A stretch of DNA of 64,000 nucleotides from Oscillospiraceae bacterium (GTDB lineage Bacteria > Bacillota > Clostridia > Oscillospirales > Acutalibacteraceae): positions 37,199 through 101,198 of the forward strand of contig SVQF01000001.1 of the NCBI GenBank assembly GCA_015065445.1, read 5' to 3'. The notes below the pieces were generated by a model, which worked only from the letters and a program-made list of their open reading frames with translations, made no database searches and had not been told where the DNA came from. Both the position numbers and the translations under genes were made by a program. Of this stretch, positions 1,518 through 50,576 are shown piece by piece. Positions within the stretch are counted from its first letter, which is position 1, and every line of letters begins with the position of its first letter.

Positions 1518-3816
1518 AAGGGACAAGACAAAGTTTGTTGTTCCTAAAAGTGTTCAGGATACTATTCCCGTAAAGGAAATATACAAGGATGGAATATTCC
1601 TCGTAGGCGAAAACAGATATTCAAAAACCTTTGCTTTTACAGATGTCAACTACTCTGTTGCAAGCAGAGAGGATCAGGAATCAATCTTTCTCGGCTACTC
1701 CGAACTCTTGAACACTTATGATGACGATGCTACAACAAAGCTCACGATATATAACCGCAGAATTAACAAGGTTGATTTTGAGCAGACAATGATGATTCCG
1801 TATAATCAGGACAATCTTGACGGTTACAGAAAAGAATACAACCAGATGCTTATGGATAAGGCTTCCGGCGCAAACTCAATCGTTCAGGAAAAGTATTTGA
1901 CCGTAACGGTAGTTAAGAACACGCTTGAGGAAGCAAAAAAGTATTTCAGCGATATTGAAACCGAGTATTCTGCAAGGCTCAAAAAGATAGGTAGCAAGCT
2001 TCGTGATTTGGACGCAGAGGAAAAACTCCATATCATTCACGACTTTTACAGAGCAGACAGCGAGGAAAACTTTTCTTTTAACTTTGATGAATACAGAAAG
2101 AAAGGTCATTCCTTTAAGGATGCAATCTGTCCCGACTCATTAGAGTTCAAAAGAGACCATATCCGTATCGGCGATAAATGTGCAAGAGTGCTTTTTCTTC
2201 GTGAATATGCCTCTGCTATTCCCGACAGTTTTGTCTCTGATTTAACCGAGCTTGACAATGATTTAATGTTGTCCATTGACATTGTTCCTATTCCTACACA
2301 CGAGGGAATTAAGCAGGTTGAGAATACCTTACTCGGTATCAATACAGAGATTACAAATTGGAAGCGTAAGCAGAGTTCAAACGGCAACTACGGTGCAGAT
2401 GTTCCTTATGATATGCAGCAGAGAAAAAAGGAACAGGAAGAACTCCTGCACGACCTTCAGGAGCGTGACCAGAGAATGTTTTTCTGTGTTCTCACAATGG
2501 TTATTACTGCTGATACTATTGAGCAGTTAAACATTGAAACGGATACGGTTATAAGAACGGCACAGGCAAAACGCTGCCAGATGGGTAAACTCACATTTCA
2601 GCAGTATGACGGTTTAAGAACGGTTCTGCCTTTTGGTGTAAGAGAGATTGAAACGCTCAGAACACTTACTACAGAATCACTCGGAGTATTTATGCCGTTT
2701 AAGGTTCAGGATATTCAGCACAACAAAGGTGTATATTACGGCTTAAACCCGATTTCTAAAAACCTTATTCTTATCAACAGAATGGAGCTTCTTAACGGCA
2801 ACTCATTTATTCTCGGTGTTCCGGGCGGTGGTAAGTCATTCGCTGCAAAGGGAGAAATTGTTAATCAAATTCTTGCCTCGGATGCTGATGTTATCATCAT
2901 TGACCCAGAAAGAGAATACTCCCCGCTTACAAAGGCTCTCGGTGGAGAAGTTATTAAGATTTCGGCGACATCTAAAAACCATATCAACGCACTTGATATG
3001 AACGAGGACTATGCTGACGGCGCTGATCCTATCGTGCTTAAATCAGAGTTCATTATGTCACTTTGTGAACTGCTTATGGGTGGTTCAGGTGTAGCAGCAA
3101 ATCAAAAGTCAATTATTGACCGTTGTGCCAAGAATGTTTACAGAGATTATGTTGCAAGAGGATATACAGGCAAAACACCTACGCTCAAGGATTTCCGTGA
3201 AGAACTCTTAAGACAGCCCGAAATTGAGGCTCACGATATGGCTCTTGCTCTTGAACTTTTCACAAACGGTTCACTTAACACATTTGCTCAAGATACCAAT
3301 GTTGATACAAACAGTCGTCTTATCTGTTATGACATTCTTGACCTTGGTAAGCAGCTTATGTCAATCGGAATGCTTGTTGTACTTGACAGCATTTTTAACC
3401 GTATTGTTGCAAACAGAGCAAGAGGAAGAAAGACTTATGTTTTCATTGATGAGATTTATCTTCTCTTTGCAAATGAGTATTCTGCAAACTTCCTTTTCAC
3501 TCTTTGGAAGCGTGTTCGTAAGTACGGAGCCTTTGCAACTGGCATTACGCAGAATGTTGAGGACTTGCTCCAGAGCCATACAGCGAGAACGATGCTTTCT
3601 AACTCGGAATTTATTGTTATGCTTAATCAGGCAGCAACGGACAGAATTGAACTCGGCAAACTCCTTAATATTTCAGAGGAGGAGTCAAAGTATATTACCA
3701 ATGTTGATGCAGGTCACGGACTTCTCAAGATTGGTTCATCTCTTGTTCCGTTTGAAAACAAATTCCCGAAGAACTCACTATACAGACTAATGACAACAAA
3801 GCCGGGCGAGGGTTAA
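1492..3816 (+). CDS. virB4: VirB4-like conjugal transfer ATPase (Firmicutes CD1110 type)
   Basis: Walker A is GVPGGGKS and Walker B is YVFIDEIY. The protein is about 775 aa from ATG 1492, which is preceded by a GAGAGGTAAG ribosome-binding site. The ORF track starts at 1450. Confidence 0.9.
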   Translation: MFTLRKILKRDKTKFVVPKSVQDTIPVKEIYKDGIFLVGENRYSKTFAFTDVNYSVASREDQESIFLGYSELLNTYDDDATTKLTIYNRRINKVDFEQTMMIPYNQDNLDGYRKEYNQMLMDKASGANSIVQEKYLTVTVVKNTLEEAKKYFSDIETEYSARLKKIGSKLRDLDAEEKLHIIHDFYRADSEENFSFNFDEYRKKGHSFKDAICPDSLEFKRDHIRIGDKCARVLFLREYASAIPDSFVSDLTELDNDLMLSIDIVPIPTHEGIKQVENTLLGINTEITNWKRKQSSNGNYGADVPYDMQQRKKEQEELLHDLQERDQRMFFCVLTMVITADTIEQLNIETDTVIRTAQAKRCQMGKLTFQQYDGLRTVLPFGVREIETLRTLTTESLGVFMPFKVQDIQHNKGVYYGLNPISKNLILINRMELLNGNSFILGVPGGGKSFAAKGEIVNQILASDADVIIIDPEREYSPLTKALGGEVIKISATSKNHINALDMNEDYADGADPIVLKSEFIMSLCELLMGGSGVAANQKSIIDRCAKNVYRDYVARGYTGKTPTLKDFREELLRQPEIEAHDMALALELFTNGSLNTFAQDTNVDTNSRLICYDILDLGKQLMSIGMLVVLDSIFNRIVANRARGRKTYVFIDEIYLLFANEYSANFLFTLWKRVRKYGAFATGITQNVEDLLQSHTARTMLSNSEFIVMLNQAATDRIELGKLLNISEEESKYITNVDAGHGLLKIGSSLVPFENKFPKNSLYRLMTTKPGEG

Positions 3817-7138: not shown

Positions 7139-8038
7139 TTATTTAGTAGTACTCTTTTGAGTAAGCTTGAGTTTGCTTTTTGCGCGAGAACGGAGTTCTG
7201 AGATTTGATGTCCTACTTTTTTGGGATCATTACTGTCTACCTTGAAGAGCTTGTCTGAAATAGAAGCAGTATTAACATATTCGTTAATATTCTTTATTTC
7301 AAACTCTCGTGAAATGTTGTTTAATATCTCATCACAAGCAGCGACAGCTCCCTTATCTAAAAGCAGTGAACAAACATCTCTGTTTTTCATGTTGAGATGA
7401 ACAGTTAAATTCGCAAAAACCTCAGCTGGCTTCAGTGAAAGCACTTCAATTTCCTGAAGAATAGTGTTGCGCTTCAGTTCAGCATCATTTCTCTGCTTTT
7501 CCTTAAGCATTCCAGTAAGTTCTTTTATGGTTTCGTTATCTATAAATGTTTTTTCAGGATTATATGTGTTGTCGGGCGTCATTTCTCCGATTGTGGATGG
7601 TTTATCATCGGAATTCGTATGTACCTCGACTGTTTTGTCAAGCCATACCATCCCGAGATCGATCTCGCGAAGATAGTCGTTAACAACATTAGAGCAGATG
7701 TTGAAAATATACCATGCTTGACCGTTAAGCGGTTTTGCAAATGCCTTTTCAATATTTTCCATTACTTTAGCAAGGCACTCCATTTCAATGTCTTCTCTTT
7801 CATATGAAGAGTTTTCAGTAATAAAACGGACTTTTTCGAGATTTCCGTTCACAACAACACCGTTTTTCTTTTTATGAGTTTTACTCATGAGTACATAATA
7901 CTTTATGTATCTTTCCGTCGCATAAAACATGTTGGTATATAACAACGGGTCTGCCAAGAGTTCTTCCCTAGTAGTAATGCCTTTTTTGGCGATGGTGTTG
8001 AGAGTATTAACAAAGTTGGTGCAATTTTCATTTTTCAT
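7139..8038 (-). CDS. Hypothetical protein (weak sigma-70 region-4-like C-terminus); first gene of the cargo region, opposite strand to the T4SS operon
   Basis: 299-aa ORF. The C-terminal HQISELRSRAKSKLK resembles the sigma region 4 recognition-helix context. No other motif was recognised. Confidence 0.45.
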   Translation of the reverse strand: MKNENCTNFVNTLNTIAKKGITTREELLADPLLYTNMFYATERYIKYYVLMSKTHKKKNGVVVNGNLEKVRFITENSSYEREDIEMECLAKVMENIEKAFAKPLNGQAWYIFNICSNVVNDYLREIDLGMVWLDKTVEVHTNSDDKPSTIGEMTPDNTYNPEKTFIDNETIKELTGMLKEKQRNDAELKRNTILQEIEVLSLKPAEVFANLTVHLNMKNRDVCSLLLDKGAVAACDEILNNISREFEIKNINEYVNTASISDKLFKVDSNDPKKVGHQISELRSRAKSKLKLTQKSTTK

Positions 8039-8062
8039 GATGGTGTCCCCCTTAAGAATTAT

Positions 8063-8090
8063 TGAAAGTGCTTGTTCACTTTCTATACAC
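8063..8090 (+). promoter_or_regulatory. Candidate sigma-A promoter for the 8188 operon
   Basis: TTGAAA (8063-8068), a 16-nt spacer, then TATACA (8085-8090). Confidence 0.35.
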
Positions 8091-8187
8091 CAACATGAAG
8101 TAGGTTTTAGTTTTCGTAAATAGTTGTTATTGTTTGATTAGTTTTTTTAGTTTTTTTAGTTTTTTTTTTGGAAAGGAGGGGTGAAAA

Positions 8188-9531
8188 ATGGAAAACAAAG
8201 ATAATTACCCGTACCTTTGTATAGGTATCTTTTTTAATCTGCTTAATACAATTATTGCCCCTTCACCCTCCCAAAGATTAAAATTACAGGGAGTTAAAAG
8301 TCGTGTCCCCGAAAAGGAATTAATGAAAGAATTGTGTTGGGCGTTAACAGGATGGGATTATATTCGTTCTTTAAACATCCAAGGAAGCGAAGTAACAGCA
8401 ATAAAGCAATGCACGAAGAATAAAACGGCAAATTTTAATTTTGATAGTAGTCAAAAAAGTGGAACAATATGTTCTAGTTTTCGTGAACAATATAAAGACG
8501 AAAATGATTATATGAATCTTATAGAACGTATTACCATACTATTTAACGAAGATATTAAACAAGATAAAAGCGATATTGGATACTTTTTCAAAAATCTTAT
8601 TTGGATTATAAAAAATGATGTCACGATAAATGATGATGTAAAATTTAGGACCACATTCAAGAATGAAGAAGAGATATCAAAGAAAAACATTGGAAACATT
8701 ACTAGTTTAGAAATACAGCCATTTGTTGCTTCAGTATTAAAATATATTCTCACAAAGACCGACAACACAAACGGAGAAAATACTTTTATATCATGGTCAA
8801 GACAAATTGGCTATAAAGGTTCCAAATATGATTTTCGTCTACCGGAAGAAGCTTATGACTTCATTCAAATTGATGTGGATTTTTGTGACTTATCAGAAGA
8901 GTCTTGGCAGCAAGGAAAAAATGTCCAACCTGAACCAAGAGTCAAAAAGCCTGTTGGCTCTAGTCCCACAGTTAAGATCGTGGTCCCTTCGGCTGTCAAG
9001 GGAACACGCGTTTGGGAAAACCTCGGAGAATCATTCGAACAATTATCTGCGGCGAATGATACTGACGAGGTCGGATATGCTAAATGGCAGATTGTACAAG
9101 ATATAAACAACATTTTCTCGGATGTAGCATTGAATTTTTTTACAAATAGCCAAGACTCAGACGATTCCAATTGGCAAAATGAATTTAATAAACATAGTCA
9201 GAGAATACGAAGTGTAGTAAATAAATATATTGCATTTGTTGATTCACTTAATGAAGACCCTAATTTAATAGATATAAAGAAAGAAGTGCTCTTTTTCAGC
9301 TCAGATATTTATCCTATATTTGCAATGTTAAGCGCCCTTTATGCCTACGAAAAAGACGCACTCGAAAAGTCTGGCGAATCAATAGGAAAAGAAGTTCGTC
9401 AATCAAGAATAGAACGAATCCAACGGGAACTTAAGTATGCTGAAAAAAGAGTAAAGAAGCAGGAAACGTCAATAAATGGCATGGTAGCCGCTTATGAACA
9501 CGGTGACGTAAAAAACAGACCATCAATTTAA
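8188..9531 (+). CDS. Hypothetical protein, first gene of VirD4-like module A
   Basis: 447-aa ORF with a strong ribosome-binding site (GGAAAGGAGGGG). No motif was recognised. Confidence 0.6.
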   Translation: MENKDNYPYLCIGIFFNLLNTIIAPSPSQRLKLQGVKSRVPEKELMKELCWALTGWDYIRSLNIQGSEVTAIKQCTKNKTANFNFDSSQKSGTICSSFREQYKDENDYMNLIERITILFNEDIKQDKSDIGYFFKNLIWIIKNDVTINDDVKFRTTFKNEEEISKKNIGNITSLEIQPFVASVLKYILTKTDNTNGENTFISWSRQIGYKGSKYDFRLPEEAYDFIQIDVDFCDLSEESWQQGKNVQPEPRVKKPVGSSPTVKIVVPSAVKGTRVWENLGESFEQLSAANDTDEVGYAKWQIVQDINNIFSDVALNFFTNSQDSDDSNWQNEFNKHSQRIRSVVNKYIAFVDSLNEDPNLIDIKKEVLFFSSDIYPIFAMLSALYAYEKDALEKSGESIGKEVRQSRIERIQRELKYAEKRVKKQETSINGMVAAYEHGDVKNRPSI

Positions 9532-9543
9532 TGGAGGCATAAT

Positions 9544-11232
9544 ATGGCACATATAACAGGTTTTGAAAGTCTTGAAAAGATAAAGAAAATATATCCGTGC
9601 TTTGATTTGACAACAAGAAAGTTTTCCAATATCAAAGGGACAAAATTTCACGGTGGAATACCGCTTTTATATGATTCGGAAACAAAACGTTTATACATTG
9701 ATGCAAGCGATACGCACAGTTTGGTTTACGGCTCTACAGGTTCTTTGAAAACAAGAGCGATAGTATCTCCAGGTATAAAAGTACTGGGCTATGCCGGAGA
9801 GTCAATGATCATAAATGATCCTAAAGGAGAACTTTTTGCTCGACATGCCGGAGATTTGAAAAAGCAAGGATATAACATAGTTGAGATCAATTTTCGTGAC
9901 CCAAGTGTAGGAAATTCGTGGAATCCTCTTTACATTCCTTATCAGTTTTATATAAACGGCGATATTGATAAATCAGCGGAATTCATTAACGATATTTCAA
10001 ATAATTTAATGGTCAGCGACCGCTCCACTGACGATCCTTTTTGGGATTTTTCAGCGTCTGACCTTCTTTACGGCTTAATTCAACTCTTGTTTAGATATTG
10101 TAAAGATCATGATGCGCCTATCAACGCAGTAAATATTGGAAACCTCATAGCGTTACGAAGAGCGCTTTTCTCAGGTAAACAGCAAGCACAGAACACAGTT
10201 CTATGGAAATATGCCTCAGAAGATGAGCTCGTGGCAGCAAGCCTGTCTGGAAGTGTCTATGCACCGAGAGATACAATGAACAGTATTTTAAGCGTTTTTG
10301 ATCAAAAAATGCGCTCATTTACTATTCAACCGACACTGTTAGACATGCTTGCAAATAACGATTTTGATATTGCAGGCATTGGCAAGACAAAAACCGCCGT
10401 CTTTCTAATTACACCGGATGAAAAGACAAGCTATCATCGACTTGTTTCGATGTTTGTAAAAGAGAGTTATGAATATTTAATATATTTGGCAACACAGACG
10501 GAGGACAATAAGGTTGAAAACCGAATCAACTACATTTTAGATGAGTTTTCTTCTCTTCCGCAGATTGCAGATATGCCTTCAATGATAAGCGCTGCAAGAA
10601 GTCGTGATATTAGGTTTTTACTTGTTGTACAAAGCCAGTCCTCGCTCAAACAACGCTATTCTGAGGAAGCGGAGACAATAATTTCCAACTGTACTAATTG
10701 GATTTTCTTTACAAGCCGTGAATTAAGCCTGCTCAAGGAAATCTCCGAATTATGTGGAACACAAAAAAATCAAATGCCAAATATCAGCGTATATGATTTA
10801 CAGCATTTAAACAAAGAAAGACGTGAAGCGTTGATTCTGTCCGGGCGGCTTAAACCTGCCAAAGTTAATATGCTTGACATTGACAAATTCGGCGATCGAA
10901 CATATACACTTCTTTCTCACGAGCATCGCGAACGGCTAAACAGAGAAAAATTGACATTCGAGTTGAGGGAAGATATTAAAAGCAAGTATATTTCACAAAT
11001 GCCAACCAATCCGTTTCTAGATGGCAATCCCTTTAGTAGTATGTCAACGGATGATTTACATGAAAATACTTCTAAGCCAAAAAACAGTGATGTAGAAGTA
11101 GATGATATACTTAAACGAATTGATCAACGCATTGCAGAACTCGAAAAAGAGGAAGCCGAAGAACAGGAAGGTAAGGATTCACCAGATACTACTGACAGTC
11201 CTGAATCAAATAACGATAAGAAAGGAGAATAG
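9544..11232 (+). CDS. Soluble VirD4/TraG-family NTPase (no N-terminal TM anchor), paralogue 1
   Basis: P-loop-like GSTGSLKTR, then WNPL, Walker B YILDEFSSLPQI and AARSRDIRFLLVVQSQSSLKQRY. The first 60 aa contain no hydrophobic helix. The C-terminal tail is acidic. Confidence 0.85.
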   Translation: MAHITGFESLEKIKKIYPCFDLTTRKFSNIKGTKFHGGIPLLYDSETKRLYIDASDTHSLVYGSTGSLKTRAIVSPGIKVLGYAGESMIINDPKGELFARHAGDLKKQGYNIVEINFRDPSVGNSWNPLYIPYQFYINGDIDKSAEFINDISNNLMVSDRSTDDPFWDFSASDLLYGLIQLLFRYCKDHDAPINAVNIGNLIALRRALFSGKQQAQNTVLWKYASEDELVAASLSGSVYAPRDTMNSILSVFDQKMRSFTIQPTLLDMLANNDFDIAGIGKTKTAVFLITPDEKTSYHRLVSMFVKESYEYLIYLATQTEDNKVENRINYILDEFSSLPQIADMPSMISAARSRDIRFLLVVQSQSSLKQRYSEEAETIISNCTNWIFFTSRELSLLKEISELCGTQKNQMPNISVYDLQHLNKERREALILSGRLKPAKVNMLDIDKFGDRTYTLLSHEHRERLNREKLTFELREDIKSKYISQMPTNPFLDGNPFSSMSTDDLHENTSKPKNSDVEVDDILKRIDQRIAELEKEEAEEQEGKDSPDTTDSPESNNDKKGE

Positions 11233-11235
11233 ACA

Positions 11236-12276
11236 ATGAGTGCAGAACGTGAAATAATTATTGAAAACCACGAAGACAATTCCAGCGTAGATGATAATGT
11301 TCAGTTTCAGGAATATAAAGTTAATATTCCTGTCAGCAATGCGAGTGTAAAAGCTCAAACTTATTTAGAATATATTTATAAATTGGAGGACGATGATGCA
11401 CGACAGGATCTATATGATTTGATAAACAAATTTTTGAGTCAAGATCAGCAGTCGGGAGATGCAGATGATTTTCATAATTTCGCTGTAGACCTCGCTCGTC
11501 GCGATGAGTATGCACTTGCCTGCCAGATCATTGAATGCGGTTTAAAATTGTTTCCCAAAAATGTGGATTTGCTTTCGGATTATCTTCAATATGGTGTTAG
11601 TTGCAACAAGCTAGAGGAATGTAAAAAGATGTACAAGACGCTTGTTAAAATTCCCCGCAGAAGATGGACTTGGCGCGGATTTGCATTTCTTATTGATTAT
11701 CTTCAATTTTTGGTAGACCGCAGTGATTCCGAAAAAGAGATAGATGCAAAAGAAGAAGAGATGTTATCGGTTGTAAGCGACTTTAAAAAGCAATTCCCCT
11801 ATAGCGAAGATTCTTACAGAACAGAAGCAAACGTGTATCGTAGTCTAAACATGCCTGACAAAGAGACTGAAGCTTTGAAACAAGCATTGGAGCATCTGCG
11901 AATAGCTCCAAAATGTGCACTCAGATATGCTGATATAATGTTTGAACGCGGATTGTATGAGGAAGCTTCAGTAGCTATACGCCGTGCGATAAGTGATGCT
12001 ACTCAAACACAAACAAGCGTAAACGAAGGTTATCTTTATTATTTGTCTGCTCTATGTAAAATTGCGACTTCACAAAAAACAAATATGGATTTGGATTTGG
12101 ACGAGGATGCTGTAGAAGCAATTTATTCGGATTTCAATATTGCTCTTTCAAAATTCCAAGATACCAAAAACAGTTATATAGATGTAATACGCACAAAAAC
12201 CAACACTATAATTAATAAAACAGGCATAGAGGTTGATCCAAAATACGATCTCCTTTGTGAATATCTTGACAATTGA
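11236..12276 (+). CDS. TPR-like alpha-helical repeat protein
   Basis: 346 aa with repeated about-34-aa helical-hairpin patterns (..YALACQIIECGLKLFPKNVDLLSDYLQYG.., ..ALRYADIMFERGLYEEASVAIRRAI..). Confidence 0.55.
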   Translation: MSAEREIIIENHEDNSSVDDNVQFQEYKVNIPVSNASVKAQTYLEYIYKLEDDDARQDLYDLINKFLSQDQQSGDADDFHNFAVDLARRDEYALACQIIECGLKLFPKNVDLLSDYLQYGVSCNKLEECKKMYKTLVKIPRRRWTWRGFAFLIDYLQFLVDRSDSEKEIDAKEEEMLSVVSDFKKQFPYSEDSYRTEANVYRSLNMPDKETEALKQALEHLRIAPKCALRYADIMFERGLYEEASVAIRRAISDATQTQTSVNEGYLYYLSALCKIATSQKTNMDLDLDEDAVEAIYSDFNIALSKFQDTKNSYIDVIRTKTNTIINKTGIEVDPKYDLLCEYLDN

Positions 12277-12306
12277 TATTTTGGTGAAAGAAATTTTGAG
12301 GAAGAT

Positions 12307-13029
12307 ATGAGCATTGAAAACAATAAATCTCTCCAACAAGCTTGGTTAAGCGATAGGAAAAAAGAGTGGGAGAATATATCTGAGAGTAAAGACTTTGAGG
12401 ATGTTTCGTCTTTTTTTCACAACATAATCGACCATGCATCCAAAATTGATGAATCATCCTTGGTCTTGGAGTTCTTACTTTTTCTTGAATCGTGTTATAA
12501 AGAAATAAATGGATTTCCAAATATTTTATTTGGACTATATGGTCTTACCTCTTTGGGCCTAAGTGCATATAAAAATCACGAATACCAAAATGCTGAAGTT
12601 GCGTTTAGAATTCTTTCAGATAGTGGCGATTCTAACGGCCTAAACAATTATGCCTACATGATGCGCAGAGGTGAAATATCTGACCCAGAAAATAATTCAC
12701 CGTTAAAGGCTCTCAAAATTCTAAGAGAGGAATTTTGCAACACTGAACCATTTATGTGTATTAATATATCCTTAACCCTTGCTCTTTGTTATGGAACGGA
12801 TAACGATTGGCATCTTGCGGATGATATAATAAAACTAATACCCAACAATAATGTTTCAGGTGTAATAAACTGGTGGTCAGATATTGAAAATGTCGGAACA
12901 ACTGAATGTTTAGTAGTTCATTTGTTATTGTTACGAAACAAACTCATTGAAGAAAGTACATTTGGAACAAAAGAGGAAATAATAAAAAAACTAAAGAAAG
13001 AAAAATTTAATATACCTAAATGGATTTAG
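12307..13029 (+). CDS. Sel1-like/TPR repeat protein
   Basis: GDSNGLNNYAYMMRRGE resembles a Sel1 repeat core. Confidence 0.5.
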   Translation: MSIENNKSLQQAWLSDRKKEWENISESKDFEDVSSFFHNIIDHASKIDESSLVLEFLLFLESCYKEINGFPNILFGLYGLTSLGLSAYKNHEYQNAEVAFRILSDSGDSNGLNNYAYMMRRGEISDPENNSPLKALKILREEFCNTEPFMCINISLTLALCYGTDNDWHLADDIIKLIPNNNVSGVINWWSDIENVGTTECLVVHLLLLRNKLIEESTFGTKEEIIKKLKKEKFNIPKWI

Positions 13030-13035
13030 ATAATT

Positions 13036-13080
13036 AAAAACAGAACGCTCTTTGCAAAAGCAGAGAGCGTTCTGTTTTTG
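13036..13080. terminator. Bidirectional intrinsic terminator closing module A
   Basis: A-run, then an 11-bp stem cagaacgctct / agagcgttctg, then a T-run. Confidence 0.7.
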
Positions 13081-13189: not shown

Positions 13190-13735
13190 ATGTCTACTAT
13201 TACTAAAAAATGGGATGAAAAGAAAATTCGCGACATTATCCGTGCACTTGATGAAAAAACCGGACTTAATGGTGCTGCGTATCCCATTAGACTTACTGAG
13301 TACCAATCAGATGTTTTGAGTTGTTTAGGTTGCTTCATGGCCGTTGGTAAAAATAAAGGATTTAAGTTTGCCATTGATTATTTTAACGATCCTTTTACCA
13401 AAGAAGCTGAAGTGATAGATATAATCCGTCATGAGTATGCACATTATTATACTGATACTGTACAACTTTATAGATATATTAATTATTCACATAGCGAACG
13501 TTCACACGGAGATGCATGGAAATGGGCATGCATAATGGTCGGAGCAGAACCCAAGCGTTACCATGATGTGGAATCGTTCAAGGATAAAAACTGGTCCATT
13601 GATGAAGCAAAAGCTGCGTATAGAGCCGATGACGTGCCTGAATTTAATATACGCAGGGCTATTAGATTCGGAGGGTCGTTAACAACTAATGCAAAGAAAT
13701 TATCTTGGATTTTATTAAATGATAAAATGGGTTGA
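13190..13735 (+). CDS. SprT-like zinc metalloprotease, ending at an in-frame TGA
   Basis: HEYAH (HExxH) followed by SHGDAWKWAC, which matches the SprT pattern HExxH...HGxxWK. TGA at 13733-13735 is followed in the same frame by 67 sense codons (see findings). Confidence 0.75.
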   Translation: MSTITKKWDEKKIRDIIRALDEKTGLNGAAYPIRLTEYQSDVLSCLGCFMAVGKNKGFKFAIDYFNDPFTKEAEVIDIIRHEYAHYYTDTVQLYRYINYSHSERSHGDAWKWACIMVGAEPKRYHDVESFKDKNWSIDEAKAAYRADDVPEFNIRRAIRFGGSLTTNAKKLSWILLNDKMG

Positions 13736-14045
13736 GCGAATGCTTATTATGAACCCGGTGACGAAGTTCTCCATCCCAAAAGGGGCTTTGGAGTTGTCGA
13801 TGATGCAATTCCCTGTGGATACTATGGACAAAAGGTGTATGTTGTTTTTGATGATCATACCGATGGCGTATTTAAAACAGAAGAATTATGCAAAGTTATT
13901 GATGGGGTTGTTATTCCATACAGTACGAAAAAACGATAATAGAAACTCTATTGTGACTTCAATGTCGCAAAAAATGGAGATTTTGGAAGTAGTTTCGTAT
14001 GTAAGAATGGGAACGACCCAATATTCAAATTTCAAATGAGAAAGG

Positions 14046-14651
14046 ATGAAAAGAATGAACAAATATGAATTTAAAGCGACCAATCTTATTGCAGAGGTTT
14101 TTGAAGAGCATGGAGTAAAGTTTGATGTGAAAAATGCACATGGGTTTGAAACTATTGTAGCCGGATTTCCCATTGATGGTGGACCTCTTATTACCGAAGA
14201 ATTCATTAGTAATAGTAATGATAATGATGTAGCAGTAAGAGTTTTTCGCATTGTAACAAACACTCCTGAAGCCAGGAGAACCCGTGCAATGGAGGCGTGT
14301 AATATCTTAAACAAAGAGGTGCGTTGTTTAGAATTTACCATTGATGATGATGGTGACGTTAATGCTTCATATGACTTTTTGAACAGCACTCCCGATGAAG
14401 CAGTGGGAGAAATGGCTCTTGAAATATTTGTACGAACAATGAAAATTCTTGATGACCGATTTTGTGTATTGATGAAGGCAATTTACACAAACGAAGAACT
14501 CAATCAAGAAGAGAAGAAACGCAAACTGGAACTTCTTCGCAGATTTCAGGCTGCTCTTAAGGAGGCAGAGGACAGGAATGACGATGGAGAAGCTAACGAC
14601 GAAGAGCTTGACAATTTCGCCTCGTGGTTAGCTGACGAAGTTGCTAGTTAA
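14046..14651 (+). CDS. YbjN-like (secretion-chaperone-fold) protein with an acidic C-terminus
   Basis: 201 aa. The alternating strand/helix pattern (..FDVKNAHGFETIVAGFPIDGG.., ..FTIDDDGDVNASYDF..) resembles YbjN-family proteins. Confidence 0.5.
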   Translation: MKRMNKYEFKATNLIAEVFEEHGVKFDVKNAHGFETIVAGFPIDGGPLITEEFISNSNDNDVAVRVFRIVTNTPEARRTRAMEACNILNKEVRCLEFTIDDDGDVNASYDFLNSTPDEAVGEMALEIFVRTMKILDDRFCVLMKAIYTNEELNQEEKKRKLELLRRFQAALKEAEDRNDDGEANDEELDNFASWLADEVAS

Positions 14652-14734: not shown

Positions 14735-14775
14735 GCCATCCGCTTAATAAATAATGTAAATAGGAGGTATTGACA

Positions 14776-15495
14776 ATGTCAAACTACAACTATGGCGATT
14801 ACGAAGAAGTCGCTCCCGAAAACATCAATGAATCTCATATGCCTGTTTTAATCGCAGGTGATATTTCAGGAAGCATGGCGGGTTTACCTATTCAAAATGT
14901 TAACAAGTCAATCAACCGCTTCTCCAGTGATGTTTGTAAGGATTCAAAAGCAGCAGCAAGGGTCGATGTTGCAGTGATTGGATTTAACGATGCTCCTCAT
15001 ATCGAGCAAAATTGGCGACCAATTACTGAAATGAACCCCGTAGAATTCACTGCTGGAGGTGGCACTAACATTTCTGCAGCTCTTGAGAAAGGTGTAAATA
15101 TGCTTCGCGATAGAGGTCACCTTTATGAAGATGTTGGCATCGATGTAAAAATGCCTTATCTAATTCTTATTACTGATGGTTATGGCGGTGATGTTACCGA
15201 GATAGCTGAAGTTATCAAGCAGCGCACGGCTGACCGTAAAATGAAGCTGTGGGTTCTTGCAGTTAAGGGCTATGATAAAGCAACTGTCGCTCAGTTAACA
15301 GATGGTAAACGAGTATTTGAATTAGTTAATGAAGACGGATATGATTTTACTGAATTCTTTGACTTTATGGCAGTTAGTGTAAAAGCCGTTTCAACTAGCG
15401 CACCCGGTCAGGACACTGTTAACGTAAAATCAAACATTGGTCGAGATGGTTCTAATTGTCGTGTTCCCGACCTTGATGCATGGCTTAATGATTGA
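14776..15495 (+). CDS. vWA-domain protein (TerY-like), TerY-P triad component
   Basis: MIDAS motif DISGSM near the N-terminus and ILITDG later on. ATG 14776 follows AGGAGG. Confidence 0.85.
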   Translation: MSNYNYGDYEEVAPENINESHMPVLIAGDISGSMAGLPIQNVNKSINRFSSDVCKDSKAAARVDVAVIGFNDAPHIEQNWRPITEMNPVEFTAGGGTNISAALEKGVNMLRDRGHLYEDVGIDVKMPYLILITDGYGGDVTEIAEVIKQRTADRKMKLWVLAVKGYDKATVAQLTDGKRVFELVNEDGYDFTEFFDFMAVSVKAVSTSAPGQDTVNVKSNIGRDGSNCRVPDLDAWLND

Positions 15496-15503
15496 TATGA
15501 TGC

Positions 15504-15544
15504 TGTGATTCTGACTGAACCAAACTTGTTCAGCCAGAATCACA
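15504..15544 (+). other. Long intercistronic stem-loop between the vWA and PP2C genes
   Basis: tgtgattctgactgaac / gttcagccagaatcaca give 16 of 17 paired positions with a 7-nt loop and no T-run. Confidence 0.5.
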
Positions 15545-15560
15545 TAAACGGAGGTTCACT

Positions 15561-16667
15561 ATGATTATTTATAAAAGTAACATGGCCGGTCCATACCATA
15601 TTGAAAATGGGCTGCCTTGTCAGGACTCATATGCGGTCCTTCAAAGTGAGAACTTTTGCGTTTTAGCTGTAACTGATGGTTTAGGAAGTGAATTATATTC
15701 TGATATTGGTGCTTCCGAGGCCGCTAGTTCCGCTGTCAATTATTGCTCAGAGAATTTATCCGTTAATATGGCTTTTGAGGACATTAAAAAAGTTATGAAC
15801 AATGCCCTTGTATGTGCATATAAAGCTGTACTTGAAAGAGCTGCGTGTGATAATAATGACCCAGATGAATACGATACAACCATGTGTTTGGCTGTTTATG
15901 ACGGTGAACACCTGTACTATGCGCAATCGGGTGACAGCGGGCTTATAGCATTACTGCAAAACGGAGAATACTACCGAGTTACATCTCAACAGCGAGATGA
16001 TGAAGGAAGGGTGTATCCACTGTGTTGGGGTCCGGATAAATGGGAATTTGGATGTGTTAAGTCACCCGTTTCTGCTTTTATGCTGATGACTGACGGAGTC
16101 TTTGAACAGATGTGTCCCCCGATTATGCGAAATCGCGATATTGATATCAATGTTCCTCTTGCCAGAAAGTTTATGGATCACTTTAATGCAACTGAAAATG
16201 ATATATTTGATATTGAAAAGTGGGCACATGAATACCTTGAACACTATCCGAGATATCTTCTTGATGACGATAAAACTATACTTGTGCTAATTAACACCGA
16301 GCGAAAGCCTAAAGAAATGGATGAAGCTTATTATGCAATTCCCGATTGGGAATCCATGAAAACTGAGGCTTTAGAAAAACTATATAACAATTCCGAGGAA
16401 CCTGATAATCAGGATGGTGAAAGAATTGATTCAAATAGTACATCGATAGAGTCAGAAATGTATATTAGCAAAGACGATGAAACATTAACCGACAAGAAAC
16501 CCATTTCAAAAAACAGAATAGAAGCACAAAACAGTGTTGCGAATAATAGCATTGGTGAAAAAATATCAGACGCACAAAATCAATATGATTCTCAGAAAAC
16601 GGGTGATACTGAAACAGCACATTCTTCAGCTATAAATGACGTAAAAAAAAACGACTGTTCAACATAA
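15561..16667 (+). CDS. PP2C-family protein phosphatase, TerY-P triad component
   Basis: CQDSY..AVTDGLGS..GDSG..LMTDGV motifs, with a low-complexity C-terminal extension. Confidence 0.8.
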   Translation: MIIYKSNMAGPYHIENGLPCQDSYAVLQSENFCVLAVTDGLGSELYSDIGASEAASSAVNYCSENLSVNMAFEDIKKVMNNALVCAYKAVLERAACDNNDPDEYDTTMCLAVYDGEHLYYAQSGDSGLIALLQNGEYYRVTSQQRDDEGRVYPLCWGPDKWEFGCVKSPVSAFMLMTDGVFEQMCPPIMRNRDIDINVPLARKFMDHFNATENDIFDIEKWAHEYLEHYPRYLLDDDKTILVLINTERKPKEMDEAYYAIPDWESMKTEALEKLYNNSEEPDNQDGERIDSNSTSIESEMYISKDDETLTDKKPISKNRIEAQNSVANNSIGEKISDAQNQYDSQKTGDTETAHSSAINDVKKNDCST

Positions 16668-16723
16668 CTATAAGCCGAAAATTTAATACATTTGTAATTA
16701 TCGGCCTTTTTCTGTTCGGACTT

Positions 16724-17185
16724 GTGTCATGGCTCTTAAAGTCAGTCATTCAAAAGCATGTGGCAGTTAGTGCTATAGGCATAATGTTAGTGTGTTTCTT
16801 TGCAAATGCATCTGTCCTGCTGCCATCTTCAAGCATTTTCATTGTGGTTGAATACTCTATGATAATTAATCCACTTCTTGTAGCGCTTTGCGGAGCAATC
16901 GGCTCATCACTTGGAGAACTAACAGGATTCTATTTAGGAAGATGTGGAACATCTGTCATTCCAAAAAAAATCACAATATGGATACAAGAAAAGATGTCAT
17001 GTCATAAATACTTAGTTGTGTTTTTATTCTCTGTGTTGCCTTTGCCAATTTTTGATATAGTCGGAATTCTTTCAGGGGCGACAAAAATGAATGCTTTGAA
17101 GTTTTTAGGAATATGTTTCGTCGGAAAACTGATCAAGATGTTATGTTATGTTTGGTTGATGCACGAAATGGTGCTATTTGTTTAA
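16724..17185 (+). CDS. Small DedA/VTT-like polytopic membrane protein
   Basis: 153 aa with four hydrophobic helices. GSSLGELTGFYLGR resembles the VTT/YqaA motif. GTG start. Confidence 0.5.
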   Translation: MSWLLKSVIQKHVAVSAIGIMLVCFFANASVLLPSSSIFIVVEYSMIINPLLVALCGAIGSSLGELTGFYLGRCGTSVIPKKITIWIQEKMSCHKYLVVFLFSVLPLPIFDIVGILSGATKMNALKFLGICFVGKLIKMLCYVWLMHEMVLFV

Positions 17186-17198
17186 AAAGGAGGAATCA

Positions 17199-18785
17199 AT
17201 GATGAATACGGTTGATTATGCCTATACAAAAGGAAAAACAAAACTTAAGCTTTCCTTTTTAGGCTCGGGAGGAGAAGGTTCAGTTTATGAAATTGTTGGA
17301 TACCCTAACCGAGTTGCAAAGATCTATCATGACGAATCGAACTTTCAAAAAAAAGAACGGGAAGCCAAAATAAATGCCATGGTGGCAATCAGCCAAAACT
17401 TTAATTTTAAAAGTGCAAGCCTTTCTAACGATATAGCTTGGCCATTGGCTCCTCTCTATGATGTCAATGGAAATTTTATTGGTTTTGGAATGGATCGAAT
17501 TCCAGCTACAACCGAACTTGATGACTTATATGTTTATCCTACAAAAAACAATGCAACTGTAACAATTAAGGATCGAGTTACATGTTTAATTAGTCTTTGT
17601 GATGTTATTGAAAGACTGCATAAGATTGATCAGGTATTTGGAGACTTTAATCCAAATAATATCAAAATCAAATCCGATTGGACAGTGAGTTTTGTTGATG
17701 CTGACTCATACCATGTAAATAATAAAGGGAATGTGTACCGATGTGTTGTTTGTGCACCCGGATATGTAGCTCCAGAGGTGATACGTGCTTGTAAAGGCAC
17801 AACTTATGCACAGTGCAAGTATACAACGTTTACAAAAGAAACCGACCGTTTTGCACTTGCTATTCACATCTTTAGAATGCTGATGAACGGATGTCACCCG
17901 TTTACCTGCGAAAGACATGTAACGCGAGTCGGTTCAGCACCTGCACCTAAGTCAACTGACAAGAGGGTAGAAACTGGAGAAACTCCATTTTTCAAATCTG
18001 TTCCAAACTGTGTTGCACCTCAATATGCACCTGACATTAACTCACTTCCATTATATCTTAGAGATTTATTTAGAAAGGCGTTTATTGAGGGACATACTGA
18101 ACCATCTAAAAGACCTTCTGCTTCTGAATGGAAAAGAGCGTTAATTAAATACAATTCTGAATTAATTGAATGTAAGAGCAATCATTTGCACTTTTATTGG
18201 AAGGGAGACCATTCTTGTCCATATTGCGAAGCTGATCGCAGATACAATCAAAAAATCGGTCTCGTCCCTGCAAAGAGTATATCAAAAAAGACGATTATTA
18301 ATACAAACAACTGTACACAATCTTCAAAAAACAAAACCAATACTAATAGCACTTACAAATCAAAGAAGGTTGCATCAACTGCCACGGCTGTTTCATCTCG
18401 AACAAATCGCTTGAACTCGGGGCTTTTTTGGAGCATTACACTCACAATCACTATAATCATGCAGGTGTTATTAGGGCTGTATGCACTACCAGAAATCTAT
18501 AGTGAAGTATTTGATAATGAGACGATAGCAATAATTGGGGTTATAGGCAGTTTGGTGTCAGGCATAGTTGGTTCAATACTATTCAATTGTCTATGGGCCC
18601 CGGGTAAGTATAAAGGCTCGTATTCATGGTGGGAATATCTCTTATCAGTTTTAACTGCATTTGGGTTCACCGTTGGATTTGGTGTTGTTATGGGGTTAGT
18701 AATTCTTATCGCAATTGCCTTGTTTTATTTGTTGGTTGGTGCTGCAATCATTGCAATAATTATAGGCATACTTTCAGGAGGTTAA
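17199..18785 (+). CDS. Ser/Thr protein kinase with zinc ribbon and C-terminal multi-TM domain, TerY-P triad component
   Basis: Gly-loop GSGGEGSVYE, Lys in VAKIYH, catalytic GDFNPNNIKI, VDADS, and YVAPEV. CPYC follows, then an S/T/N-rich linker and about four TM helices. Confidence 0.8.
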   Translation: MMNTVDYAYTKGKTKLKLSFLGSGGEGSVYEIVGYPNRVAKIYHDESNFQKKEREAKINAMVAISQNFNFKSASLSNDIAWPLAPLYDVNGNFIGFGMDRIPATTELDDLYVYPTKNNATVTIKDRVTCLISLCDVIERLHKIDQVFGDFNPNNIKIKSDWTVSFVDADSYHVNNKGNVYRCVVCAPGYVAPEVIRACKGTTYAQCKYTTFTKETDRFALAIHIFRMLMNGCHPFTCERHVTRVGSAPAPKSTDKRVETGETPFFKSVPNCVAPQYAPDINSLPLYLRDLFRKAFIEGHTEPSKRPSASEWKRALIKYNSELIECKSNHLHFYWKGDHSCPYCEADRRYNQKIGLVPAKSISKKTIINTNNCTQSSKNKTNTNSTYKSKKVASTATAVSSRTNRLNSGLFWSITLTITIIMQVLLGLYALPEIYSEVFDNETIAIIGVIGSLVSGIVGSILFNCLWAPGKYKGSYSWWEYLLSVLTAFGFTVGFGVVMGLVILIAIALFYLLVGAAIIAIIIGILSGG

Positions 18786-19754: not shown

Positions 19755-19824
19755 GAATATGGAGATTCGATTCGCTATCCCGTATATAAACTTTAGATAA
19801 TTCCGATGAAAGGATTGAACCAAA

Positions 19825-21144: not shown

Positions 21145-21149
21145 GAAAA

Positions 21150-24593: not shown

Positions 24594-24604
24594 GGAGGTA
24601 AACC

Positions 24605-27974: not shown

Positions 27975-28154
27975 CCAACAACTATAATTAAATAAAAACT
28001 GGAGAAAGTCAATTGCGATACGTATACAAGAACAAGGAAACTTGAATTGAACATAAAATGCAGCTCGTTAATTAACTGTATTATGAAGGTGTTTTGCTAT
28101 ATAAGCAATTATTATTATAAAATTCACATAAAGAGGAAAGGACAAGAAATATCT

Positions 28155-39740: not shown

Positions 39741-39752
39741 GGAGGACTGAAT

Positions 39753-50562: not shown

Positions 50563-50576
50563 ATAGGAGAATTATT

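What the first reader, a model, noticed from the sequence alone, without database searches (positions are those of the whole stretch)
8188..13029. Third anchorless VirD4/TraG-like NTPase in an operon with an unknown protein and TPR/Sel1 repeat proteins
The operon contains genes 8188, 9544, 11236 and 12307, with gaps of 12, 3 and 30 nt. It has its own candidate promoter (8063-8090) and a strong bidirectional terminator (13036-13080). The 562-aa NTPase has VirD4 hallmarks (WNPL, YILDEFSSLPQI, AARSRDIRFLLVVQSQ). Its P-loop is atypical (GSTGSLKT, with Leu where the second conserved Gly is expected). It has no TM anchor. Its partners are two alpha-solenoid repeat proteins, which are typical sensor or scaffold modules. 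The operon contains no recognisable enzyme effector.
Basis: partly seen in the sequence, partly recalled or inferred. Interest (0 to 1): 0.68.

Follow-up and report, generated by a model that had tools for sequence, protein, structure and literature searches.

The report
Anchorless coupling-protein paralog with TPR partner
A conjugative element from a gut Clostridia bacterium carries, besides its normal DNA-transfer "coupling" ATPase, a membrane-anchorless copy with an altered ATP-binding loop that always travels with a TPR protein and three other genes as a self-contained cassette, which probably works as a cytoplasmic sensor/switch and not in DNA transfer.

Summary
Four co-directional ORFs (8188, 9544, 11236, 12307) have gaps of 12/3/30 nt and end at a 21-bp hairpin terminator. 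The 562-aa protein (B) is a VirD4/TrwB-type NTPase with no TM segment and the Walker A GSTGSLKT.

New findings:
- The same ICE has a canonical two-TM T4CP beside its relaxase, just upstream of the window. B is therefore a surplus paralog, 25% identical to it.
- The Gly-to-Leu P-loop defines the whole clade: none of 120 relatives keeps Gly.
- B is followed by the TPR protein C in every locus examined. D and a divergent sigma-like gene are usually present as well.
- The first gene (A) is a swappable slot. It usually carries an OmpR-type winged helix. Here it carries an orphan domain also found at the N-terminus of NACHT and ABC-3C immune NTPases.
- In one genome the five-gene cassette sits alone as a low-GC, repeat-flanked island with no T4SS nearby.

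"Sel1" for D and the + strand promoter are not supported.

Best reading (about 0.42): a T4SS-independent NTPase/TPR sensor-switch, probably a conflict system. It matches no PADLOC system, and function is unproven.

The parts
7139..8038 (-). Divergently transcribed 299-aa sigma-70-like protein ('sig'), the fifth conserved member of the cassette
   Evidence: Weak NCBIfam ECF-sigma region 2 hit (26.4 bits, E 5.5e-6, residues 76-154). The conserved C-terminal motif VSxQISRxxYRAKxxL resembles sigma region 4.2 (alignment A5; the resemblance is my reading). Homologs in the same divergent position were found in L001-L004, L008-L010, L020, L023, L024 and L028, with an ORF of the same size and position in L026. 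No Pfam hit and no PDB sequence support.
8039..8187 (.). 149-nt divergent intergenic region holding the presumed promoters for sig and for the A-B-C-D operon. It contains three overlapping copies of a T-rich 19-nt repeat spaced 9 nt apart (8130-8166).
Evidence: The sequence was read directly and the repeats were found. Only a 9/12 minus-strand promoter-like site is reported (8085-8058).
8188..9531 (+). Protein A (447 aa), a two-module protein. The N-terminal domain (about 3-243) is shared with N-termini of NACHT/nSTAND and ABC-3C proteins. A disordered linker (244-270) follows. The C-terminal helical bundle (273-443) is shared with A-slot proteins of other loci.
   Evidence: Exhaustive phmmer gave 110 hits, about 100 of them through the N-domain only. 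A Pfam census of 47 such proteins found NACHT in 10, SNaCT14 in 7, ABC-3C CTD6 in 5 and nSTAND3 in 5. The C-domain matches the A-slot profile at 90 bits. The AF2 model has pLDDT 86. No PDB or BFVD structural match. No Pfam hit.
9544..11232 (+). Protein B (562 aa), an anchorless T4CP-derived P-loop NTPase. It has Walker A GSTGSLKT, an intact Walker B (LDEF) and RSRDIRF/VVQS motifs, and an acidic C-terminal tail with a conserved helix.
   Evidence: Pfam and NCBIfam hits. No TM segment. In the Walker A census of 120 clade members, none has Gly before the Lys. The clade is monophyletic and sister to anchored T4CPs. B is 25% identical to the ICE's own T4CP.
11236..12276 (+). Protein C (346 aa), a TPR solenoid of 16 helices with a disordered acidic N-terminus (1-27). 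It is the constant partner of B.
   Evidence: AF2 pLDDT 88.3, pTM 0.80. Top Foldseek PDB matches are TTC0263, consensus TPR and OGT/SPINDLY TPR domains. C lies immediately downstream of B in every locus with context. It has 193 homologs, nearly all about 340 aa.
12307..13029 (+). Protein D (240 aa), a helical protein with a conserved C-terminal core (about 80-240) carrying the motif NNLAYMIRRxExxNPEN. Any Sel1 likeness is marginal.
   Evidence: Homologs at 32-37% identity were found in L001, L002, L004, L009, L020, L023 (fused to a DUF1292-like domain), L024, L026 and L028. No Pfam hit. The family profile gives E 0.19-0.5 to single SEL1L repeats.
13035..13080 (.). Bidirectional intrinsic terminator that closes the operon
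   Evidence: 21-bp perfect stem with a 4-nt loop, -32.7 kcal/mol, z = -9.98, and none of 200 shuffles folds as well. It is flanked by A5 and T5 runs.

Best explanation
The region is a self-contained five-gene cassette: sig (divergent), then A, B, C and D. It is built around a cytoplasmic paralog of a type IV coupling protein that has lost its membrane anchor.

Shown:
- B is not the element's coupling protein. The ICE has a canonical anchored T4CP beside its relaxase.
- B belongs to a monophyletic clade that lost the TM domain and replaced the Gly before the Walker-A Lys, mostly with Leu.
- B is always followed by the TPR protein C, and usually by D.
- The first gene is a recombining slot that keeps a common C-terminal helical bundle but swaps its N-terminal domain.
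- The cassette can exist as an isolated, repeat-flanked, low-GC island without T4SS genes nearby.

Inferred mechanism:
- B acts as a nucleotide-dependent switch or DNA- and protein-binding platform, presumably an oligomer like other T4CPs.
- The repeat proteins C and D supply the recognition surface. They may dock on B's conserved acidic C-terminal helix.
- A is tethered through its helical bundle and delivers the output through its variable N-terminal domain. That domain is DNA-binding in most loci. In this window it is the domain used at the effector end of NACHT and ABC-3C immune NTPases.
- The sigma-like gene regulates the operon or is part of the response.
- The logic parallels a STAND NTPase (output domain, NTPase, TPR sensor) split over three genes.
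- The likeliest role is a conflict or defence function of the ICE, against phage or competing mobile DNA, and not DNA export.
For: - Canonical T4CP on the same element: L018 overlaps the window at 100% over 2,983 nt. It carries NikA-like, relaxase, DUF3801, ArdC-N, then a 604-aa T4CP with two TM helices, GGSGSGKT and a 517-bit full-length CD1115 match, followed by TrbC, TrbL, PrgI and VirB4.
- B scores only 257.9 bits against a cut-off of 250, and clade members score 248-260, whereas anchored T4CPs score 299-517.
- No TM segment in A, B, C or D, nor in any protein of the L026 cassette.
- Walker A census: Leu 106, Lys 8, Met 3, Gln 2, Gly 0 of 120, with Walker B and the Arg motifs retained.
- B followed by C in every context examined, including the most divergent C homologs at 43-44% identity.
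- A-slot modularity: Trans_reg_C in L001, L007, L008, L010, L026 and P0243. Window A's N-domain occurs in NACHT, SNaCT14, nSTAND and ABC-3C CTD6 proteins.
- Isolated island: the L026 cassette lies between PPDK and GntR/ECF/MatE genes, at GC 0.33 against 0.48-0.56, flanked by about 80-nt direct repeats 7,687 bp apart.
- Neighbouring cargo is defence-like: ABC-3C in L020, OLD-like TOPRIM in L023, and the VWA-PP2C-kinase triad here.
- Precedent: a TrwB-like T4SS-DNA_transf domain is proposed as a sensor in a few Menshen NsnA proteins (PMC12065111).
Against: - No experimental data, and no PADLOC hit for A-D.
- No recognisable toxic or enzymatic effector. The commonest A-slot domain is a transcription-factor-type winged helix, and a sigma-like gene is attached. 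Both fit a regulatory module as well as an immune one.
- Nearly all contexts belong to one ICE family, where the cassette is syntenic with a ClpP-c8-B2 module. That is what a backbone function would look like.
- The isolated L026 island could be an ICE remnant.
- The B-C, B-A and B-tail contacts are inferred, not computed.
- A Leu before the Walker Lys might abolish nucleotide binding, which would make 'switch' the wrong word.
Confidence: 0.42

Rival explanations
1. The cassette is an ICE life-cycle module for regulation or DNA processing. A binds specific ICE DNA through its winged helix. It recruits the T4CP-like motor B through B's C-terminal tail, as the DNA-binding protein TraM recruits the coupling protein TraD in the F plasmid. 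C and D act as adaptors, and the sigma-like protein drives the associated transcription. The module controls excision, replication, transfer-gene expression or establishment of the element.
For: - OmpR-type winged helix in most A-slot proteins.
- Conserved divergent sigma-like gene.
- B retains the TraG-D_C region, which Pfam names the 'TraM recognition site', and an acidic tail with a conserved helix.
- A's conserved C-terminal helical bundle could play the part of TraM's tetramerisation domain (the analogy is from my own knowledge).
- The cassette is syntenic within one ICE family, next to another T4CP-like module with ClpP.
Against: - The isolated L026 island has no ICE to regulate within 7 kb either side.
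- The A slot is replaced wholesale between close relatives, and here by a domain typical of NACHT/ABC-3C conflict proteins. That is unusual for a backbone regulator.
- The position relative to the T4SS genes is not fixed.
Confidence: 0.27
2. B is an auxiliary coupling protein of the TMD-less class, like TraJ of plasmid pIP501. It docks on the ICE's T4SS through a partner and feeds it a special substrate, for example proteins bound by the TPR chaperone-like C and D, or a second DNA.
For: - TMD-less T4CPs are a recognised class, exemplified by the TraJ/TraI pair of pIP501 (PMC7431656).
- B keeps every T4CP motif except one glycine.
- TPR proteins act as secretion chaperones in type III systems (my own knowledge).
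- A YbjN/T3SS-chaperone-like gene lies 1 kb downstream, at 14046-14651.
Against: - No cassette protein has a TM segment that could act as the membrane partner.
- The ICE already has a complete anchored T4CP next to its relaxase.
- The cassette occurs without nearby T4SS genes in L026.
- The Walker A glycine needed in canonical motors is lost throughout the clade.
- Published TMD deletions of TrwB, PcfC and MobB are non-functional (PMC7431656).
Confidence: 0.12
3. B is a decaying duplicate of a coupling protein, and the operon has no function of its own.
For: Loss of the anchor and of a canonical P-loop residue are the kinds of change seen in pseudo-enzymes.
Against: - More than 120 clusters at 90% identity span 54-100% identity, with conserved length, Walker B, Arg motifs and tail helix.
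- The substituted residue is itself conserved: Leu in 106 of 120.
- Partner C is conserved across 193 homologs, with 21 invariant positions among the 34 aligned.
- Operon spacing stays tight in all loci.
Confidence: 0.03

Closest known systems
Canonical type IV coupling proteins (VirD4 / TraG / TrwB; NCBIfam NF045973 'CD1115 family'), including this ICE's own T4CP
   Same: Same NTPase fold family: T4SS-DNA_transf, TrwB_AAD_bind and TraG-D_C. Walker B, the RSRxxR and Q motifs and the WNP motif are all present. B scores marginally above the CD1115 cut-off. It is sister to anchored T4CPs of Bacilli ICEs at 37-38% identity.
   Different: No TM anchor. Walker A has Leu, Met, Lys or Gln in place of the Gly before the Lys, throughout the clade. 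B is not next to the relaxase or T4SS genes. It is only 24-25% identical to the ICE's real T4CP. It has dedicated TPR and helical partners. It can occur without a T4SS nearby.
TMD-less T4CPs such as TraJ of pIP501 (with membrane partner TraI)
   Same: A coupling-protein NTPase domain without a transmembrane domain, in a Gram-positive mobile element (PMC7431656).
   Different: TraJ is the only T4CP of its system. It sits in the tra operon and is thought to use a membrane protein partner. Here there is a separate anchored T4CP, no membrane partner in the cassette, and a non-canonical P-loop.
STAND NTPase immune and regulatory proteins (NACHT/Avs; SARP/AfsR-type wHTH-NTPase-TPR regulators)
   Same: The parts list and order are alike: a variable N-terminal output domain, a P-loop NTPase and a TPR sensor. 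Window A's N-domain is literally shared with NACHT/nSTAND proteins. Other A-slot proteins carry the OmpR-type winged helix used by SARP regulators (the SARP architecture is from my own knowledge).
   Different: The NTPase is of the FtsK/HerA-T4CP lineage, not STAND. The three modules are separate polypeptides. No homology of B or C to Avs or NACHT proteins was found, and there is no PADLOC hit.
Menshen (NsnABC) variants with an N-terminal T4SS-DNA_transf domain on NsnA
   Same: A TrwB-like coupling-protein domain recruited outside conjugation, proposed as a sensor in an antiphage system (PMC12065111).
   Different: There it is a fused domain in three proteins of a different, validated system. 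Here it is a stand-alone protein with its own partners, and no Menshen components were detected by PADLOC.

Membership tests
Functional type IV coupling protein (VirD4/TraG/TrwB) | T4CP nucleotide-binding domain (Pfam T4SS-DNA_transf / TrwB_AAD_bind) | tested here: met
   PF02534 2.1e-41, PF10412 1.7e-17, PF12696 8.5e-22.
Functional type IV coupling protein (VirD4/TraG/TrwB) | Canonical Walker A GxxGxGK[ST] | tested here: not met
   B has GSTGSLKT. None of 120 clade members has Gly before the Lys. Anchored relatives have G[AG]SGSGKT.
Functional type IV coupling protein (VirD4/TraG/TrwB) | N-terminal transmembrane anchor, or an adjacent membrane partner | tested here: not met
   Maximum 19-residue hydropathy is 1.19 in B and below 1.5 in A, C and D. 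Anchored homologs show 2-3 TM segments under the same test.
Functional type IV coupling protein (VirD4/TraG/TrwB) | Encoded with the relaxase and T4SS genes, as the element's T4CP | tested here: not met
   That position is held by L018:7780-9594, a 604-aa protein between ArdC-N and TrbC and four genes after the relaxase. B lies beyond the T4SS block, and in L026 it has no T4SS within 7 kb either side.
Functional type IV coupling protein (VirD4/TraG/TrwB) | Required for conjugative transfer and binds the relaxosome | not testable with these tools
   Needs genetics and biochemistry.
NCBIfam NF045973 'VirD4-like conjugal transfer protein, CD1115 family' | Score at or above the curated cut-off (250 bits) | tested here: inconclusive
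   B scores 257.9 and clade members score 248.2 and 260.0. Bona fide anchored members score 299-517. The match covers model positions 16-376 of 442. B passes formally but is a borderline outlier clade.
TMD-less T4CP class (TraJ of pIP501 type) | No TMD, sole T4CP of the system, within the tra operon, with a membrane partner | tested here: not met
   The no-TMD condition is met. However, a second, anchored T4CP exists and the cassette holds no membrane protein. The class definition comes from PMC7431656.
TPR repeat proteins (protein C) | Tandem helix-turn-helix repeats forming a solenoid, or a Pfam TPR match | tested here: met
   The Pfam hits are all below their cut-offs. The AF2 model (pLDDT 88) has 16 helices, and the best PDB matches are TPR proteins at E 1e-6 to 1e-5.
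RRNPP-type peptide receptors (Rap/PlcR/AimR) for protein C | TPR receptor fold of that family, with an N-terminal HTH or three-helix bundle | tested here: not met
   None appears in the top 50 Foldseek PDB matches, and the N-terminus of C is disordered.
Sel1 repeat proteins (protein D) | Significant match to Sel1 repeats | tested here: inconclusive
   No Pfam hit at E <= 0.1. The five-sequence family profile gives E 0.19-0.5 to one repeat of human SEL1L.
Known anti-phage defence systems (PADLOC-DB v2) | Match of the component proteins to a system's models | tested here: not met
   Only chance-level hits: A to a type IV Cas11 model at E 2.8e-4, and B to HerA at E 4e-3.
STAND NTPases (NACHT / NB-ARC / Avs) | STAND-clade NTPase domain | tested here: not met
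   B matches only T4CP families. The link to STAND proteins is A's N-domain, which is shared with NACHT/nSTAND proteins. This is an analogy of architecture, not membership.

The most novel reading that the evidence does not exclude
A previously undescribed, T4SS-independent conflict system of gut Clostridia in which a coupling-protein-derived NTPase has been exapted as the central switch. It has lost its anchor and has Gly-to-Leu in the P-loop. It works with TPR and helical sensor partners and a swappable output protein that shares domains with NACHT and ABC-3C immune proteins. Coupling proteins are, by ancestry, receptors for relaxase-DNA complexes. The trigger could therefore be incoming conjugative DNA, which would make this an anti-conjugation (exclusion or fertility-inhibition) sensor and not only an anti-phage one.
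Probability: 0.3. Interest if true: 0.82.

Novelty: new variant of a known kind. Interest (0 to 1): 0.6.

Why it matters
Automatic annotation and ICE-finding pipelines treat coupling proteins as markers of conjugation. This clade would be miscounted as a T4CP: NCBIfam calls it a 'conjugal transfer protein' by 8 bits. Yet it appears to have left the secretion machine. If the cassette is a sensor-switch system, it would be the first stand-alone case of a T4CP motor exapted for signalling or immunity. It would add a new NTPase lineage to the 'NTPase plus TPR plus swappable output' design seen in STAND immunity. It would also give a handle on how large Clostridia ICEs in the gut compete with phages and with each other. 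The clade-wide Gly-to-Leu P-loop is a clean biochemical question in its own right. The same elements carry two further anchorless T4CP paralogs, one always coupled to a ClpP protease, so repeated exaptation of this motor may be general.

Tried and rejected
- **Is B the ICE's real T4CP?** Rejected after walking upstream of the window. Two look-ups failed: the VirB4 start codon was wrong, and the contigs broke inside VirB4. The TrbL-like gene at 283-1116 then gave L018 with the anchored T4CP.
- **Known defence system?** PADLOC gave nothing for A-D.
- **Is C an RRNPP/Rap/AimR quorum-sensing receptor?** Foldseek gives generic TPR solenoids only.
- **Does window A hide an OmpR-type winged helix?** The evidence conflicts:
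  - A MAFFT alignment lines up 'SRQIGYKG' with the 'RGxGYKY' wing.
  - The A-slot profile aligns from that hairpin onward.
  - An N-domain profile weakly hits the wHTH region of L002 (16.8 bits).
  - hhalign gives under 1% probability, there are no PDB sequence hits, and Foldseek finds no winged-helix match.
  - I left this as 'topology compatible, not shown'.
- **Is A's N-domain an enzyme?** Conserved positions are C11, G13, C75, D144 and N193-G196-T199, with no conserved His and no structural match. Unresolved.
- **Is sig a bona fide sigma factor?** Only a 26-bit NCBIfam hit. A 13-sequence profile finds nothing in PDB sequences.
- **Is D a Sel1 protein?** E = 0.19 at best.
- **Is the cassette on plasmids or phages?** No C or B-clade member in PLSDB or INPHARED.
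- **Literature.** A search for 'CD1115' returned nothing on the protein's function, judged from titles and abstracts only. Searches for VirD4-like defence systems and for soluble T4CP paralogs in ICEs found no description of this cassette.
- **B against PDB.** Single-sequence phmmer gave no hit. I did not run a profile search.

Full report
**1. The observation**

The four ORFs exist exactly as described: A 8188-9531 (447 aa), B 9544-11232 (562 aa), C 11236-12276 (346 aa) and D 12307-13029 (240 aa). They are co-directional with gaps of 12, 3 and 30 nt, and each has an RBS-like tract. Gene calls on independent metagenome contigs carrying the identical sequence give the same products.

B is a clear VirD4/TrwB-type NTPase: T4SS-DNA_transf 2e-41, TraG-D_C 8.5e-22, TrwB_AAD_bind 1.7e-17. 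All four quoted motifs are present, and no hydrophobic stretch approaches TM character.

The operon ends in a 21-bp perfect hairpin at 13035-13080 (-32.7 kcal/mol, z = -10) flanked by A and T runs.

Two details do not hold up.
- The proposed + strand promoter is TTGAAA-16-TATACA, which lacks the final T of the -10 hexamer. The scan finds only a minus-strand site at that place. Promoter-like sites in the region (29) are only modestly above the shuffled expectation of 19.8, sd 4.6.
- The 'Sel1' label for D has no significant support. There is no Pfam hit, and a family profile reaches only E = 0.19-0.5 to single SEL1L repeats.

The TPR label for C is below every Pfam cut-off. A confident model confirms it (pLDDT 88.3, 16 helices), and its best PDB matches are TPR solenoids.

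**2. What element this is, and where its real coupling protein lies**

The window is the distal half of a large Firmicutes ICE. Its genes include:
- a CD1110-family VirB4 (1450-3816, 1009 bits);
- a sortase and an NlpC/P60 hydrolase;
- a VWA-PP2C-kinase triad;
- an SNF2 helicase and a methylase plus ResIII pair;
- a tyrosine integrase at 50553-51752.

GC content rises from about 0.35 to 0.46 near 54 kb.

The window holds three TM-less T4CP-like genes, starting at 9544, 19825 and 25375. I walked upstream using the TrbL-like gene at 283-1116. This recovered a contig (L018) that matches the window at 100% over 2,983 nt and extends 9.7 kb further.

L018 carries, in order: a 3,079-aa polyvalent protein, a Toprim gene, NikA-like, relaxase, DUF3801, ArdC-N, a 604-aa T4CP, TrbC-like, TrbL, PrgI and VirB4. 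The 604-aa T4CP has two N-terminal TM helices, GGSGSGKT and a full-length 517-bit match to the CD1115 model. That is the ICE's coupling protein, and B is only 25% identical to it.

It still needs genetics.

**3. The B clade**

NCBIfam puts B just over the CD1115 cut-off (257.9 against 250). Clade members score 248-260, while anchored T4CPs score 299-517.

A neighbour-joining tree shows the following:
- The B clade is monophyletic.
- It is sister to anchored T4CPs of Bacilli ICEs at 37-38% identity. Those proteins have 2-3 TM segments and GASGSGKT, and sit directly in their T4SS clusters.
- It is separate from the other two anchorless paralog clades (B2 at 25-26%, TrwB-like at 20-22%).

The unusual P-loop is a clade trait. 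Among 120 cluster representatives at 54-100% identity, the residue before the Walker Lys is Leu in 106, Lys in 8, Met in 3, Gln in 2 and never Gly. Walker B (LDEF), RSRDIRF and VVQS are retained. The acidic C-terminal tail contains a conserved helix, IDxLIxRIDxKIAELEAEE.

No member of the B clade, and no homolog of C, occurs in PLSDB plasmids or INPHARED phages. All loci come from Clostridia, apart from two MAGs labelled only 'bacterium'. The named genomes include Blautia, Pseudolachnospira, Hominifimenecus, Oscillospiraceae, Ruminiclostridium and Spyradocola.

**4. The neighbours**

Thirteen genome loci and sixteen metagenome loci were collected. C lies immediately downstream of B in every case with context. 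This includes the most divergent C homologs at 43-44% identity. C has 193 homologs, nearly all about 340 aa.

D homologs at 32-37% identity are present in most loci. They are sometimes preceded by, or fused to, a DUF1292-like domain.

A divergently transcribed 258-338-aa protein occupies the same upstream position throughout. It has a weak ECF-sigma region 2 match and a region-4.2-like C-terminal motif. The unit is therefore five genes.

**5. The A slot**

A is the variable member.
- **C-terminal domain.** Window A's residues about 190-439 match the A-slot family profile at 90 bits.
- **N-terminal domains elsewhere.** These differ between loci. An OmpR-type winged helix (Trans_reg_C) is found in L001, L007, L008, L010, L026 and P0243. 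Other loci have further unrelated N-termini.
- **N-terminal domain here.** An exhaustive HMMER scan shows that window A's N-domain (about 3-215) recurs at the N-terminus of about 100 proteins. A Pfam census of 47 of the longer ones found NACHT in 10, SNaCT14 in 7, nSTAND3 in 5 and ABC-3C CTD6 in 5. In STAND immune proteins the N-terminus is the usual effector position (my own knowledge).
- **Structure.** The model of A is confident (pLDDT 86). It has an alpha/beta N-domain, a disordered linker and a long helical bundle. It has no significant match in the PDB or BFVD.
- **Cryptic winged helix.** Whether the N-domain hides one is unresolved.

**6. Autonomy of the cassette**

In L026/L027 the five genes sit alone between PPDK and GntR-aminotransferase, ECF-transporter and MatE genes.
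- The island has GC 0.33 in a chromosome of 0.48-0.56.
- It is bracketed by imperfect direct repeats of about 80 nt, 7,687 bp apart.
- It has no tRNA, integrase or T4SS gene within 7 kb either side.
- No cassette protein has a TM segment; a 94-aa ORF just after D, still inside the island, scores 1.97 on the same hydropathy test.
- GATGSLKT and tight gene spacing are intact.

Elsewhere the cassette lies next to defence-type cargo: ABC-3C in L020, OLD-like TOPRIM in L023, and the VWA-PP2C-kinase triad here. It is often linked to a ClpP-c8-B2 module.

**7. Interpretation**

Three things are well supported:
- B is a surplus, anchorless, P-loop-altered T4CP paralog.
- It forms a conserved cassette with C, D, a swappable A and a sigma-like gene.
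- The cassette can persist away from a T4SS.

How it works is inference. I favour a cytoplasmic NTPase/TPR sensor-switch whose output is A. This is the logic of a STAND protein spread over three genes, most likely serving a conflict role (0.42).

The main rival is an ICE regulatory or DNA-processing module modelled on TraM-TraD (0.27). The winged helices, the sigma-like gene and the family-specific synteny support it.

An auxiliary T4CP of the pIP501 TraJ type (PMC7431656) is less likely (0.12). The cassette has no membrane partner, a complete T4CP already exists, and the L026 island has no nearby T4SS.

A decaying duplicate is excluded by the breadth and pattern of conservation (0.03).

A computational precedent exists for a TrwB-like domain used as a sensor in an antiphage system, Menshen NsnA (PMC12065111). 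PADLOC has no model that matches this cassette. My literature searches found no description of it.

**8. Verdict**

It is a new variant of a known protein kind, with a plausible but unproven claim to be a new kind of system.

Noticed in passing
window 24021-27871 (ClpP 24021-24593; unknown 24605-25378; anchorless T4CP paralog B2 25375-26979; unknown 26924-27871): A strongly ClpP-like protease (PF00574, 3e-62) is followed by a 257-aa unknown and then a second anchorless T4CP-like ATPase with canonical TGYGKT and an LEELGS Walker B. The ClpP-c8-B2 order recurs in L003, L009, L023 and L024/25 (c8-B2 also in L008), usually just downstream of the B-C cassette. A ring ATPase paired with ClpP might act as an unfoldase. 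That is speculation.
   Followed up: partly
window 19086-22427 (unknown 19086-19754; TrwB-like 19825-21144; unknown 21150-22427): A third anchorless T4CP-like gene (439 aa, TrwB_AAD_bind 7e-38, canonical GGTGSGKT) is flanked by 222-aa and 425-aa unknown proteins. The same trio (220, 437 and 426 aa) occurs in L028/L029 after the VWA-PP2C-kinase triad.
   Followed up: partly
L018:7780-9594 (same element, 9.7 kb upstream of window position 1): This is the ICE's canonical T4CP: 604 aa, two TM helices, GGSGSGKT, 517 bits on the CD1115 model. It lies four genes after a MobP-type relaxase and just before the TrbC-like, TrbL, PrgI and VirB4 genes. Further upstream is a 3,079-aa polyvalent protein with SNF2, MutS_I and Eco57I-like domains.
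   Followed up: yes
window 14770-18785: A VWA protein, a PP2C phosphatase, a small ORF and a Ser/Thr kinase-like protein lie in a row, resembling the TerY-P triad (my own knowledge). The kinase weakly matches PADLOC PD-T4-6 models (8.7e-7). The block is conserved in L003, L006 and L028/29, directly after the B-C cassette.
   Followed up: partly
window 8130-8166: Three overlapping copies of a 19-nt T-rich repeat, spaced 9 nt apart and containing the unit TAGTTTTTTT, lie just upstream of the RBS of gene A in the divergent intergenic region. They could be a regulator-binding or UP-like element.
   Followed up: no
L026 about 2380-2458 and about 10066-10146: Imperfect direct repeats of about 80 nt, 7,687 bp apart, bracket the isolated low-GC cassette island. 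Each contains two to three copies of a unit of about 20 nt (GAGTTTTCGTGATAGTAT-like). They could be att-like ends or binding sites for the winged-helix A protein.
   Followed up: partly
window 13190-14651: An SprT-like metalloprotease-motif protein (13190-13735, sub-threshold) and a YbjN/T3SS-chaperone-like protein (14046-14651, PF10722 1.7e-6) lie immediately after the terminator. YbjN homologs recur downstream of the cassette in L002 and L008.
   Followed up: no
window 28047-31052 and 38166-42377: A 1,001-aa SNF2-family helicase, and a DNA methylase (PF01555) plus ResIII helicase pair, are probably restriction or anti-restriction cargo of the ICE. A BspA-type LRR protein lies at 47511-49295. 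The tyrosine integrase at 50553-51752 precedes a GC jump at about 54 kb, which marks the likely end of the element.
   Followed up: no
L001, L004, L010 (for example L001:15003-19557): In a subset of related ICEs the stretch after the cassette carries a ThiF/E1-like protein, unknown proteins, a transglutaminase-like protein and an SPFH/Band-7 protein with a zinc ribbon. This is another candidate conflict module, and its transglutaminase-like member corresponds to window 22429-23463.
   Followed up: no
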